In this document: piece by piece, positions 25,871-28,337 of the stretch | How the letters are laid out: each line of letters begins with the position of its first letter | Numbering within the stretch: position 1 is the stretch's first letter | Assembly: GCF_003334255.1 (NCBI RefSeq) | Contig: NZ_QOWU01000011.1 | Source: Escherichia coli | GTDB taxonomy: Bacteria; Pseudomonadota; Gammaproteobacteria; Enterobacterales; Enterobacteriaceae | DNA: 64,000 nucleotides | Reading direction: 5' to 3' (one strand) | Notes under the pieces: generated by a model | What the model was told of the DNA's origin: nothing | The model's input: only the letters and a program-made list of their open reading frames with translations | The model's database searches: none | Made by a program: the position numbers and the translations under genes

Positions 25871-25902
25871 GGTCGGATAAGACGTTCGCGTCTCATCCGA
25901 CC
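25871..25902. terminator. Hairpin between convergent csdE and tcdA
   Basis: ggtcggataagacg-ttcg-cgtctcatccgacc, 14 bp stem with one mismatch. Confidence 0.5.
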
Positions 25903-25909
25903 TGATTGT

Positions 25910-26716
25910 TTAACCCTGACGCGCCGCTTTCGCCATCATCTTCTTCAGCGCATGAGAAACCGCAACAAACCCAAAGGTGGCGGTCACCATCGTTGCCGCG
26001 CCAAATCCAGATGCACAATCCATCCGCTTCGGCCCTTCTGCCGTGGCTTTCATCGCACACACCGTACCGTCTGACTGCGGGTACACCAGCGCTTCAGTAG
26101 AAAACACGCAATCCACGCCGAGCTTACCTTTACTGTTTTTCACTACGCCAAAATCGCTTTTCAGGCGCTCGCGCAACTTCGCCGCCAGCGGGTCCTGAAT
26201 CGTTTTCGCCAGATCGGTAACCTGAATCTGCGTCGGATCAATCTGCCCACCCGCGCCACCGGTTGTGACCAGTGGGATTTTATTGCGCCGACAATAAGCA
26301 ATCAGCGCCGCTTTGGGCCGTACACTATCAATGGCATCAATCACGTACGAATAACCCACGCTCATATACTGCGCTACGTTATCCGGCGTCACGAAATCAT
26401 CCACCACCGTTACACGGCACTCCGGGTTAATCTGGCGAATACGCTCCGCCATAACTTCCGCTTTTGCCAGCCCAACGTTATCGCGCAGGGCATGAATTTG
26501 CCGATTGGTATTGGTGACGCACACATCATCCATATCGATAAGCGTGATTGCGCCAATCCCCGTGCGCGCCAGCGCTTCCGCCGCCCAGGAACCGACACCA
26601 CCGATACCAACCACACAAATATGCGCGTCAGCAAACAGTTGCAACGCTTTTTCACCATACAGACGCGCTGTGCCACCAAAACGCTGACGCCATGCATCAC
26701 TAATTACCACAGACAT
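25910..26716 (-). CDS. tcdA: tRNA threonylcarbamoyladenosine dehydratase (ThiF/MoeB-like E1)
   Basis: 268 aa ORF with nucleotide-binding GIGGVGSW. Confidence 0.9.
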   Translation of the reverse strand: MSVVISDAWRQRFGGTARLYGEKALQLFADAHICVVGIGGVGSWAAEALARTGIGAITLIDMDDVCVTNTNRQIHALRDNVGLAKAEVMAERIRQINPECRVTVVDDFVTPDNVAQYMSVGYSYVIDAIDSVRPKAALIAYCRRNKIPLVTTGGAGGQIDPTQIQVTDLAKTIQDPLAAKLRERLKSDFGVVKNSKGKLGVDCVFSTEALVYPQSDGTVCAMKATAEGPKRMDCASGFGAATMVTATFGFVAVSHALKKMMAKAARQG

Positions 26717-26739
26717 AGCACCTCAGAATTAAAAAGGGC

Positions 26740-26919
26740 GAGGTTATCCCTCACCCTAAACGCATAAATGCCTGATGCGCTACGCTTATCAGGCCTACAT
26801 AACTCCTGCAATATTTTGGATTTGCATGATTTGTAGGCCGGATAAGGCGTTCACGCCGCATCCGGCATGAACAACGCGCACTTAGTCAATAATCAGGATG
26901 TGAGGTTACCCCTCACCCT
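26740..26919. repeat. REP pair (BIME-like) flanked by 18 bp direct repeat
   Basis: REP gcctgatgcgctacgcttatcaggcctac (26770-26798) and inverted REP gtaggccggataaggcgttcacgccgcatccggc (26833-26866); flanks gaggttatccctcaccct (26740-26757) and gaggttacccctcaccct (26902-26919). Confidence 0.6.
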
Positions 26920-26954
26920 GTCATATCCGTAAAAACGGCATACAGAATATCACA

Positions 26955-28052
26955 TCAGCCGCTAAAGACGTTACCTGCGCCCGGGGCGGTTTTCAGCACC
27001 CAGACACGTCCATAGTGGTTGTACCAACCTGCGCGGTGTCCGGCTTCCGGCCCGATCCCTTGATAGATATCGAAGTGTTGGCCTTTGATTGCACCACCGA
27101 CATCCAGCGCCACCATCAGACGCAGTTCGTACTGACCATTAAATTTGCCGTTATTATCCAGCAACGGCACTTCTGCCAGCAAGGTAGTACCTGGCGGAAT
27201 AATGGAACGATCAGAGGCAACTGACGCGCGACCAACCAGCGGCACCGCACTTGCCCCTTTCACCGGAGCAAAAGATTGCGGTTTAAAGAAGACGAAAGAC
27301 GGGTTCTGTTCCAGCAGCTCGCGAACCTCGGCTTCACTGTGTGTTTCGCCCCAGTGACGAATCGCCTGCATCGACATATCTTCTTTTTTCACTTCGCCAC
27401 GGTCGATCAGCACCTTACCAATGCTGCGATAGGCATGACCGTTTTTCCCTGCATAGCTGAAAAAGTTAAGCGGACTGCCATCACCAAAGTCGATATACCC
27501 ACTACCCTGCACATCCATAATGAAGTTATCCATCAGGGAGTTACTGTAAGCGAGAATATATTTATCACTCAATGCCCCCGCGTAGATCTCCGCACGAGAC
27601 GGCAGACGACCACGTTTTGGCGGCATACGGTAAATAGGATACTGGAACTCGCCCTGGCGGGTATGGCGCGCCTGAATTACCGGCGTGTAATAACCGGTAA
27701 ACTGCACGTTACCATAGTTGTCGGCACCTTCCATCTGCCAGGCATCAATGCCGAACTGGCGCATATTGCGGGTATCACCGCCTGCGCGCAGCCACTCTTG
27801 CACCGCGTTATAAACATTACTCTGGTTGCCATACAGACGCGGTGACGAATTACGGATATGGTTAATTTGCTCGGCAAAATCACCGGCGTTAATCGGCGCG
27901 CCAACGGCATCTGGCTGGTTCACCAGAGAGAAAGGCTGGGTAAATTTCCCGTCTTTATATTGCTGTCCGCGATCGGTTGGTTTGGAAGAGCAGGCGGCAA
28001 GCATTGCCACAACCGTGCCCATAAGAAGGTACTTTACCCAACGTCCTTTCAT
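26955..28052 (-). CDS. mltA: Membrane-bound lytic murein transglycosylase A (lipoprotein)
   Basis: ORF 26955..28481 trimmed to MKGRWVKYLLMGTVVAMLAACSSKPTDRG (365 aa); lipobox LAACSS. Confidence 0.9.
   Translation of the reverse strand: MKGRWVKYLLMGTVVAMLAACSSKPTDRGQQYKDGKFTQPFSLVNQPDAVGAPINAGDFAEQINHIRNSSPRLYGNQSNVYNAVQEWLRAGGDTRNMRQFGIDAWQMEGADNYGNVQFTGYYTPVIQARHTRQGEFQYPIYRMPPKRGRLPSRAEIYAGALSDKYILAYSNSLMDNFIMDVQGSGYIDFGDGSPLNFFSYAGKNGHAYRSIGKVLIDRGEVKKEDMSMQAIRHWGETHSEAEVRELLEQNPSFVFFKPQSFAPVKGASAVPLVGRASVASDRSIIPPGTTLLAEVPLLDNNGKFNGQYELRLMVALDVGGAIKGQHFDIYQGIGPEAGHRAGWYNHYGRVWVLKTAPGAGNVFSG

Positions 28053-28260: not shown

Positions 28261-28337
<77 letters not shown>

What the first reader, a model, noticed from the sequence alone, without database searches (positions are those of the whole stretch)
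26740..26919. REP pair flanked by an 18 bp direct repeat (gaggttaYccctcaccct) between tcdA and mltA
Two inverted REP units sit between near-identical 18 bp direct repeats (17/18 identical, 162 bp apart). REP/BIME elements are common, but flanking direct repeats suggest insertion with target duplication, or a composite repeat family.
Basis: seen in the sequence. Interest (0 to 1): 0.35.

Follow-up and report, generated by a model that had tools for sequence, protein, structure and literature searches.

The report
BIME-1 insertion duplicated a terminator hairpin
A known 150-bp repeat element (BIME-1) sits in the mltA terminator, which was copied to both sides of it on insertion; the same hairpin-sized duplication flanks many other copies and gives a rare clue to how these repeats spread.

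Summary
GAGGTTAYCCCTCACCCT occurs only twice in the window (26740-57 and 26902-19), and the repeat extends to 20 nt. Between the copies lies one complete BIME-1/RIP element: Y-REP, 34-nt linker, Z-REP and conserved non-REP arms, with the left arm truncated.

The repeated unit is the intrinsic-terminator hairpin downstream of mltA, not a repeat family. About half of complete E. coli genomes (2755 of 5426) carry this allele. The rest have an intergenic region exactly 162 bp shorter, with one hairpin. Salmonella and another enterobacterial outgroup also have one hairpin and no BIME-1. A metagenome scan found the 18-mer only at this locus, plus scattered unrelated singletons.

The pattern is general. 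Full-length BIME-1 is a constant 152-153 bp unit. In 20 of 46 single full-length copies (E. albertii, Escherichia, Pseudocitrobacter), a locus-specific GC-rich hairpin of 15-30 nt is directly repeated against both ends, versus 0.25% of shuffled pairings. In all five loci compared, the empty allele has one hairpin.

The best reading is structure-directed insertion at terminator hairpins that duplicates the whole hairpin. The enzyme is unknown. I found no description of this footprint for REP/BIME elements in the papers I could reach.

The parts
25910..26716 (-). tcdA coding sequence (context; its start codon lies 19 nt from the foot of the left hairpin stem)
   Evidence: ORF; annotated as tcdA in identical E. 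coli records
26725..26757 (-). Left (tcdA-proximal) hairpin copy with its T-run: AGGGTGAGG-GATAA-CCTCGCCCT followed by TTTTTAATT, a terminator-like site for transcription coming from mltA
   Evidence: Terminator scan; RNA fold -17.2 kcal/mol, z -4.7
26738..26757 (.).
26758..26899 (+). The inserted BIME-1/RIP element as a whole (142 bp). Together with one 20-nt repeat it makes the 162-bp presence/absence polymorphism.
   Evidence: Filled versus empty alignment; comparison with 46 full-length copies
26758..26769 (+). Remnant of the left arm (AAACGCATAAAT, the last 12 of about 23 nt of the family consensus GAGACTGATGACAAACGCAAAAT)
   Evidence: the same truncation is seen in E. albertii L035 and in L105
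26770..26799 (+). Y-type REP (palindromic unit) GCCTGATGCGCTACGCTTATCAGGCCTACA
26800..26831 (+). Long (L) linker of BIME-1, overlapped by the Rfam ES036/CssrF match at 26791-26833 (minus)
   Evidence: 46.5 bits against a gathering score of 37.6; the linker resembles that of other copies
26832..26868 (+). Z-type REP TGTAGGCCGGATAAGGCGTTCACGCCGCATCCGGCAT
   Evidence: (I1, I3)
26869..26899 (+). Right arm GAACAACGCGCACTTAGTCAATAATCAGGAT (family consensus GAACAAAGCGCACTTTGTCAGCAATCTG)
   Evidence: Paralogous copy at rsmS-mscK; family alignment
26900..26919 (.). It forms a weaker hairpin and has no T-run on the minus strand.
   Evidence: fold -11.3 kcal/mol
26955..28052 (-). mltA coding sequence (context; the duplicated hairpin is its downstream terminator)
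   Evidence: Annotation in identical records; stop codon at 26955-26957

Best explanation
The tcdA-mltA spacer originally held one GC-rich stem-loop followed by a T-run, the intrinsic terminator of mltA. A BIME-1 element inserted at this hairpin. BIME-1, also called RIP/RIB and a REPIN-type element, consists of a left arm, Y-REP, L linker, Z-REP and right arm, and is 152-153 bp when complete. The insertion left one copy of the hairpin on each side (a duplication of about 20 nt).

Shown directly:
- the anatomy of the element;
- the exact 162-bp filled/empty difference;
- the single hairpin in empty alleles and in outgroups;
- the same whole-hairpin duplication abutting both ends of many other full-length BIME-1 copies at unrelated loci, with a length that follows the size of the local hairpin (15-30 nt).

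Inferred:
- The two strands of the target were opened at opposite feet of the stem-loop (extruded hairpin or cruciform). The stagger was therefore set by the structure and not by a fixed spacing in an enzyme, and gap repair copied the whole hairpin.
- The catalyst is unknown. [quoted passage not shown]
- Because both copies survive, termination is kept. The T-run stays with the distal copy in each direction, so the element ends up inside the 3' UTR. This would explain why BIME-1 sits at 3' ends of transcription units and is tolerated.
- The two repeats also allow precise loss, which fits the roughly 50:50 presence/absence in E. coli.
For: - Anatomy of this locus.
- Population: 2755 of 5426 complete E. 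coli genomes are filled. The others cover the query in two pieces spanning 129 bp instead of 291.
- Empty alleles: UTI89 and five others carry one hairpin. The UTI89 hairpin is a perfect 9-bp stem followed by UUUUU, -17.7 kcal/mol.
- Outgroups: Salmonella enterica and an unidentified enterobacterial contig have a single orthologous hairpin and no BIME-1.
- The 18-mer is confined to this locus in metagenomes.
- Family-wide test: full-length copies measure 147-154 bp, mostly 153. In 20 of 46 single copies (42 independent loci) an ungapped direct repeat lies within 0-3 nt of both ends, against 5 of 2000 shuffled left/right pairings. The repeats score at 14-29 nt, or 15-30 with the base shared with the right arm in 17 of 20. 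Each folds as a hairpin of -5 to -18 kcal/mol, and 26 of 46 copies have strong hairpins against both ends.
- Four more filled/empty comparisons (yfcC-yfcD, uvrB-yvcK, metE-ysgA, yddM-fdnI) each show one hairpin in the empty allele and a size difference equal to the element plus the repeat.
- At yfcC-yfcD and metE-ysgA all 5426 E. coli genomes are empty and only one sister lineage is filled, which points to insertion.
Against: - No insertion event was observed, and no enzyme was tested.
- At this locus the left arm lacks 11-12 nt, and the right repeat copy lacks the outer two G's of the stem, so the junctions are not canonical.
- E. albertii shares the insertion, so the E. coli polymorphism may reflect loss rather than gain.
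- Only 43% of full-length copies have a clean ungapped repeat (about two thirds if diverged or gapped pairs are counted by eye). Seven of 46 copies have no strong hairpin against either end.
- IS200/IS605-type Y1 transposases, the relatives of RayT, make no target duplication (PMC3333891, PMC2817692), so the favoured enzyme does not predict the footprint.
Confidence: 0.8

Rival explanations
1. Replication or repair origin rather than transposase-made staggered cuts. A fork or repair polymerase stalls at the terminator palindrome, switches template to a BIME-1 elsewhere, copies it, and returns upstream of the hairpin, so the hairpin is copied twice.
For: - The left junction varies. Arms are truncated by 7-23 nt with the repeat abutting the truncated end, here and in L040, L029 and L102/L127, while the right junction is nearly invariant. 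This suggests a polar, imprecise second joining.
- Variable duplication length is unusual for transposases.
- Y1 transposases do not make duplications (PMC3333891).
Against: - Most copies have sharply defined ends with the same terminal bases (GAGACTG... and ...AATCTG) and a constant 152-153 bp length.
- No microhomology between the element ends and the many different targets is evident.
Confidence: 0.15
2. The polymorphism at this locus is loss, not gain. The insertion predates the split of E. coli from E. albertii, and the one-hairpin alleles of B2 and other lineages arose by precise deletion between the 20-nt repeats. This is compatible with the best explanation for the origin of the repeats; it concerns only which state is derived within E. 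coli.
For: - E. albertii (L035) and the genome titled E. coli E69 (L105) carry the element with the same left-arm truncation.
- Empty alleles come in three hairpin haplotypes, (T,C), (T,T) and (C,T). The (C,T) type equals the left copy joined to the right flank, as expected from a crossover between the repeats.
Against: - The (T,C) and (T,T) haplotypes cannot be made from the present filled allele by a single crossover.
- Outgroups have the (T,T)-like or C-type single hairpin, so retained ancestral empty alleles or recombinational replacement are also possible.
Confidence: 0.5
3. The two 18-mers are independent or pre-existing tandem hairpins (for example separate terminators), and the BIME-1 simply landed between them without duplicating anything.
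For: Intergenic regions often hold more than one stem-loop; a further small hairpin, CCGTAAAAACGG, lies at 26928-26939.
Against: - No allele or outgroup without the element has two copies.
- The size difference is exactly the element plus one repeat.
- 17/18 identity is far beyond chance.
- The same arrangement recurs with different hairpins at 20 or more loci.
Confidence: 0.02
4. The 18-mer plus REP pair is a composite mobile repeat family that carries its own flanking hairpins.
For: None beyond the local appearance.
Against: - The 18-mer occurs only at this locus in the window, in the fetched loci and in metagenomes, apart from unrelated singletons.
- Hairpins flanking other BIME-1 copies are all different and locus-specific.
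Confidence: 0.01

Closest known systems
BIME-1 / RIP / RIB elements of E. coli (Y-L-Z1 palindromic-unit mosaic, about 140 bp, IHF-binding linker, present or absent among isolates)
   Same: One Y-type and one Z-type REP lie head to head across a long linker of about 34 nt. The copy is single and extragenic, at the 3' end of a gene, and polymorphic among strains (descriptions in PMC3333891 and PMC1187871).
   Different: Nothing in the element itself, apart from a left arm truncated by 11-12 nt. What the papers I could read do not describe is the flanking duplication of a whole terminator hairpin.
REPIN/RAYT system (REP doublets mobilised by a domesticated IS200-like Y1 transposase)
   Same: Two inverted REPs with GTAG feet fold into one long hairpin (-55 kcal/mol, z -4.4). 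The element is non-autonomous and multi-copy, and rayT is present in K-12.
   Different: IS200/IS605-type transposition makes no target duplication, and REPs are said to lack MITE signatures (PMC3333891, PMC2817692, PMC3184786). Here a long, variable duplication is the rule. The REPs flanking K-12 rayT lack the BIME-1 arms.
Stem-loop-targeted transposition in the IS1182 family (IS1272)
   Same: The target is a stem-loop recognised by structure, not sequence, and its size varies. [quoted passage not shown]
   Different: IS1272 itself replaces (deletes) the stem-loop and is an autonomous DDE element of Gram-positive bacteria. BIME-1 duplicates the stem-loop, has no transposase, and no autonomous partner with the same ends was found.
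Classical MITEs (ERIC, Correia, Nezha and others)
   Same: Short, non-autonomous, with imperfect terminal inverted repeats (the arms), flanked by direct repeats, with filled and empty sites in relatives.
   Different: MITE duplications are short and of fixed length (2-10 bp). Here the duplication is 15-30 nt and always a complete hairpin.
CRISPR spacer integration by Cas1-Cas2, and casposons (recalled from general knowledge, not tested here)
   Same: Staggered attacks at the two borders of a partly palindromic repeat duplicate the whole repeat. IHF is involved in E. coli, and BIME-1 carries an IHF site.
   Different: The inserted DNA (33-bp spacers), the enzymes and the fixed repeat length all differ. 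This is an analogy only.

Membership tests
BIME-1 (RIP/RIB) | One Y-type and one Z-type palindromic unit in inverted, head-to-head orientation | tested here: met
   Y at 26770-26799 and Z at 26832-26868; inverted repeats I1 and I3; exact match to the anchors CTTATCAGGCCTAC...GTAGGCCGGATAAGG
BIME-1 (RIP/RIB) | Long L linker (about 34 nt) between the units, similar among copies | tested here: met
   34-nt linker; Rfam ES036 match above the gathering score; similar to the rsmS-mscK copy and to the 33-36-nt linkers of other copies
BIME-1 (RIP/RIB) | IHF binding to the linker | not testable with these tools
   By eye the linker shows only a degenerate IHF-like sequence; no binding data
BIME-1 (RIP/RIB) | Single copy at an extragenic site at the 3' end of a transcription unit, present or absent among strains | tested here: met
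   One unit downstream of mltA; present in 2755 of 5426 genomes
BIME-1 (RIP/RIB) | Conserved non-REP arms outside the two units | tested here: inconclusive
   The right arm is complete; only 12 of about 23 nt of the left arm are present
REPIN (RAYT-mobilised REP doublet) | Two inverted REPs with GTAG/CTAC feet able to form one long hairpin | tested here: met
   GTAGGCC and GGCCTAC feet; fold -55.2 kcal/mol, z -4.43
REPIN (RAYT-mobilised REP doublet) | Mobilisation by the cognate RAYT | not testable with these tools
   rayT exists in K-12, but its flanking REPs lack the BIME-1 arms; no activity data
REPIN (RAYT-mobilised REP doublet) | IS200/IS605-like insertion without target duplication | tested here: not met
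   Duplication of 15-30 nt at 20 of 46 full-length copies, and at this locus
MITE (DDE-transposon derived) | Terminal inverted repeats | tested here: met
   Family consensus arms GAGACTGATGAC... and ...GTCAGCAATCTG are imperfect inverted repeats; the left one is truncated in the window
MITE (DDE-transposon derived) | Short target duplication of fixed length | tested here: not met
   Length 14-29 (15-30) nt, tracking hairpin size
MITE (DDE-transposon derived) | An autonomous IS with the same ends | tested here: inconclusive
   The arm query against the plasmid collection hit only BIME-1-like sites, mostly with no annotated gene and none a transposase; no genome-wide search was possible
Structure-directed (stem-loop) target choice, IS1182-like | Targets share structure, not sequence | tested here: met
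   42 independent loci with unrelated hairpin sequences
Structure-directed (stem-loop) target choice, IS1182-like | IS1182-family DDE transposase responsible | not tested
   No candidate was examined
Intrinsic (rho-independent) terminator (the duplicated unit) | GC-rich stem-loop immediately followed by a T-run, downstream of a gene | tested here: met
   Left copy on the minus strand; UTI89 single copy -17.7 kcal/mol followed by UUUUU. The right copy has lost the T-run.
Intrinsic (rho-independent) terminator (the duplicated unit) | Termination of mltA transcripts in vivo | not testable with these tools
   No transcript data

The most novel reading that the evidence does not exclude
Whole-hairpin target duplication of variable length is the general, so far undescribed footprint of BIME-1/REPIN insertion in Enterobacteriaceae. 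These elements integrate by a structure-directed reaction at the two feet of intrinsic-terminator stem-loops. This explains their 3'-UTR location, their harmlessness (a terminator is kept on both sides) and their reversible presence/absence. It also gives the first concrete, testable target for the unknown REP dissemination mechanism.
Probability: 0.35. Interest if true: 0.75.

Novelty: new variant of a known kind. Interest (0 to 1): 0.58.

Why it matters
REP/BIME elements are the most abundant repeats of E. coli, yet recent papers still call their dissemination mechanism unknown (PMC8266576; bioRxiv 10.64898/2026.03.23.713779). Reviews state that they lack transposon signatures (PMC3184786).

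A consistent footprint narrows the possible mechanisms: one complete, locus-specific terminator hairpin copied to each side of a sharply bounded 152-153-bp unit. It points to hairpin or cruciform recognition with cuts at both feet.

It would also explain three things:
- why BIME-1 lies at the 3' ends of genes;
- why insertion does not abolish termination;
- why copies can be lost precisely.

It supplies a simple computational rule for polarising and dating insertions, and suggests a trap assay with a strong bidirectional terminator as bait.

For this locus alone the result is ordinary: a known element, polymorphic in the species.

Tried and rejected
- Rfam scan of 25.5-29.5 kb: found only the tRNA, the BIME-1 linker family ES036 and weak REP-like naRNA4 hits. 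Nothing specific to the 18-mer.
- Promoter scan of the spacer: no sigma-70-like site, so no support for the repeats being promoter parts.
- 'Composite repeat family' and 'common motif' readings: rejected by window, loci and metagenome searches.
- Autonomous partner for the arms: the plasmid-collection search returned only BIME-1-like sites, some in chromosome-sized records mislabelled as plasmids. Inconclusive.
- RayT locus of K-12: flanked by REPs without the BIME-1 arms, so it does not look like the parent of the 152-bp unit.
- Frequency of the odd GPEC464 allele via a junction query: uninformative, because BLAST joined the two halves in normal alleles.
- Older primary papers that may bear on prior knowledge (Bachellier 1997, PMC1207841; Gilson 1991, PMC333889; Boccard and Prentki 1993, PMC413762): not held.
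- Papers that could be read (PMC3333891, PMC2817692, PMC3184786, PMC3337134, PMC8266576, PMC3733652, PMC1187871, PMC2884548 and three preprints): none mentions a hairpin duplication flanking BIME/REP.
- The contig with TcdA at 97% identity (L200) was too short to show the spacer.

Full report
**1. The observation**

The sequence at 26740-26919 is as described. The repeat finder returns the 18-nt pair at 26740-57 and 26902-19, 94% identical and 162 bp apart, with two REP palindromes between them. Allowing three mismatches, these are the only two hits in the 64-kb window, against 0.07 expected. The repeat extends two bases further left, to 20 nt. The flanking ORFs are tcdA (25910-26716, minus) and mltA (26955-28052, minus), as annotated in identical E. 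coli records.

**2. What lies between the repeats**

It is more than two REPs. From left to right:
- a 12-nt non-REP stretch, AAACGCATAAAT;
- a Y-type unit;
- a 34-nt linker, which matches Rfam ES036/CssrF above its gathering score;
- a Z-type unit;
- a 31-nt non-REP stretch, GAACAACGCGCACTTAGTCAATAATCAGGAT.

The right-hand stretch has close paralogues elsewhere in E. coli. One is the BIME-1 between rsmS and mscK. That copy is itself flanked by two versions of a different hairpin (GGGGCCGCTAAATGTCCCC and GGGGCAACTAAATGTCGCCCC). The inserted unit is therefore a complete BIME-1 (Y, L, Z1, about 140 bp, as summarised in PMC3333891 and PMC1187871).

**3. What the repeat is**

On the minus strand, the sense strand of mltA, the tcdA-proximal copy reads AGGGTGAGG-GATAA-CCTCGCCCT followed by TTTTTAATT. 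The terminator scan picks it up and it folds at -17.2 kcal/mol. The mltA-proximal copy folds more weakly (-11.3 kcal/mol) and has no T-run. The repeated unit is thus the stem-loop of the mltA terminator.

**4. Population and outgroups**

Of 5426 complete E. coli genomes, 2755 carry the full 291-nt query. The others match in two pieces spanning 128-129 bp, exactly 162 bp less. UTI89 and five other such strains have one hairpin between tcdA and mltA. In UTI89 it is a perfect 9-bp stem followed by T5 (-17.7 kcal/mol).

The single copies differ at the same two positions that distinguish the two repeat copies in filled strains, giving haplotypes (T,C), (T,T) and (C,T).

Salmonella enterica and an unidentified enterobacterial contig (TcdA 93% identical) also have one orthologous hairpin and no BIME-1. 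The single hairpin is therefore ancestral and the filled state is derived.

E. albertii and a genome titled E. coli E69 carry the element with the same truncated left arm. The insertion is old, and some E. coli empty alleles may be precise secondary deletions between the repeats. I cannot decide this without a phylogeny and give it about even odds.

**5. Is the 18-mer a motif of its own?**

No. A scan of 241 million metagenomic records found 62 stretches. Forty-two are this locus: 26 single-copy sites between the tcdA and mltA flanks, 12 with the BIME-1, and 4 partial. The other 20 are unrelated singletons in diverse contexts, none carrying a tcdA, mltA or BIME-1 flank. Among all fetched loci, the 18-mer occurs only in tcdA-mltA loci and these metagenomic hits.

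**6. Is the arrangement general?**

I used the single genome-collection scan on a BIME-1 pattern (CTTATCAGGCCTAC, 25-45 nt, GTAGGCCGGATAAGG). They come mainly from E. albertii, two Pseudocitrobacter species, three Escherichia genomes and a few Citrobacter, Kosakonia and Salmonella.

An unconstrained test on 90-nt flanks already showed an excess of left/right repeats: score 12 or more in 42 of 123 true pairs, against 13 of 600 shuffled pairs.

Inspection showed a constant unit:
- left arm GAGACTGATGACAAACGCAAAAT;
- Y-REP;
- linker of about 35 nt;
- Z-REP;
- right arm GAACAAAGCGCACTTTGTCAGCAATCTG(A).

The whole measures 147-154 bp, mostly 153. The arms are imperfect inverted repeats.

Fifty of 130 pattern hits have both arms. 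Among 46 single full-length copies, representing 42 independent loci:
- 20 (43%) have an ungapped direct repeat within 0-3 nt of both ends, usually 0, against 5 of 2000 (0.25%) shuffled pairings;
- the repeats are 14-29 nt, and in 17 of 20 they extend one base into what I had called the right arm, so the element is 152 bp and the duplication 15-30 nt;
- each repeat folds as a hairpin of its own locus (-5 to -18 kcal/mol), most of them GC-rich; in 14 of 20 an A-run of 2 or more precedes the left copy and in 9 of 20 a T-run of 2 or more follows the right copy, the shape of a bidirectional intrinsic terminator;
- several more copies have diverged or gapped pairs, and 26 of 46 have strong hairpins against both ends;
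- several pattern hits without the arms (Citrobacter, Kosakonia and Salmonella types) showed no such repeats by inspection; this group was not scored separately.

**7. More filled/empty pairs**

Four further loci were compared with the E. coli collection.

| Locus | Filled in | Empty in | Size difference |
|---|---|---|---|
| yfcC-yfcD | one non-coli Escherichia | all 5426 E. coli | 166 bp |
| metE-ysgA | E. albertii | all E. coli | 171 bp |
| uvrB-yvcK | polymorphic in E. coli | polymorphic in E. coli | 174 bp |
| yddM-fdnI | 2070 of 5426 E. coli | the rest | 178 bp |

In every case the empty allele has exactly one hairpin, and the size difference equals the element plus the repeat. With tcdA-mltA, that makes five loci out of five.

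**8. Mechanism**

Shown: a sharply bounded unit, a locus-specific duplication that is always a whole stem-loop, and a duplication length that follows the stem-loop.

Inferred: the target is recognised by structure and opened at opposite feet on the two strands, so that repair copies the hairpin. A fixed-stagger DDE reaction would give a constant length, which is not seen.

The IS200/IS605 chemistry of the RayT relatives gives no duplication (PMC3333891, PMC2817692). Either RayT acts on both strands of a cruciform, or another activity or a replication-based route is responsible.

The closest published idea concerns IS1272 and the IS1182 family, which choose stem-loops as targets. The model in PMC5678879 states that joining at the 5' feet would duplicate the whole stem-loop, although IS1272 itself deletes it.

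One asymmetry is worth noting. The right junction is almost invariant. The left arm is shortened by 7-23 nt, with the repeat abutting the shortened end, at this locus and in L040, L029 and L102/L127. This hints at a polar or two-step joining.

A functional consequence follows from the anatomy. The T-run stays with the distal copy in each direction, so termination is retained and the element becomes part of the 3' UTR.

**9. Prior knowledge**

The element, its position at 3' ends and its presence/absence among isolates are known (PMC3333891, PMC1187871). None of the eleven papers and preprints I could read mentions a flanking duplication. A review says REPs lack MITE signatures (PMC3184786), and recent work calls the mechanism unknown (PMC8266576). 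The older primary papers were not available, so an earlier mention cannot be excluded.

**10. Verdict**

The locus itself is an ordinary polymorphic BIME-1. The flanking repeat is a real target duplication of the mltA terminator hairpin, and it appears to be one case of a family-wide footprint of possible mechanistic value.

Noticed in passing
L003:1277-1507 (E. coli GPEC464, tcdA-mltA locus): An odd allele. A left-type hairpin and the mltA-side flank are followed by a 231-bp pseudo-copy of the mltA 3' end, joined at ...CAG|ATTTGTAGGCC to the Z-REP. Then come the right arm, the right hairpin and intact mltA. This is a REP-bounded duplication of a gene fragment, annotated as a '3D domain' pseudogene.
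   Followed up: partly
window 28261-28337: There is only one initiator tRNA-Met gene between mltA and amiC, where K-12 has three in tandem (metZ, metW, metV). This is copy-number variation of a 110-bp tandem unit.
   Followed up: partly
window 26758-26769; L040, L029, L102, L127, L035, L105: The left junction of BIME-1 is variable: the arm is shortened by 7-23 nt, with the hairpin repeat abutting the shortened end. The right junction is nearly invariant. This may be a sign of a polar or two-step insertion.
   Followed up: partly
L135 (E. coli IAI1, uvrB-yvcK): This BIME-1 copy keeps only the right hairpin, while the E69 genome has both and another strain has the empty site. After insertion, one repeat copy can be lost.
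   Followed up: no
L016:6973-7478 (E. albertii): Four tandem BIME-1-like units with a period of about 147 bp, including arm sequences, although BIME-1 is described as occurring singly.
   Followed up: no
L017, L039, L053: In older insertions the two hairpin copies have diverged (17/21, 17/21 and 22/29 identical), yet each still folds strongly (-12 to -20 kcal/mol). This suggests that both copies are kept as stem-loops.
   Followed up: no
L198:1400-1460 (Salmonella enterica, tcdA-mltA spacer): Salmonella has the single orthologous hairpin followed by a different palindrome (GCCCGATAGCGATCGCGTTATCGGGC) at the same spot. The spacer has been a repeated landing place.
   Followed up: no
window 25871-25915: A weak REP-like match (Rfam naRNA4, E = 0.069) lies between csdE and tcdA.
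   Followed up: no
L059, L113, L114, L129, L125-L127: Exact E. coli-type BIME-1 sequences occur on tiny, low-coverage contigs of genomes titled Desulfosporosinus, Alkalicoccobacillus, Oceanobacillus and a Collinsella MAG. This is most likely enterobacterial contamination of those assemblies.
   Followed up: no
plasmid collection, e.g. NZ_CP141089.1 (4.9 Mb), NZ_OL790696.1 (4.8 Mb): Chromosome-sized E. coli records are filed as plasmids. They show 19-29 arm-bearing BIME-1 sites per genome.
   Followed up: no
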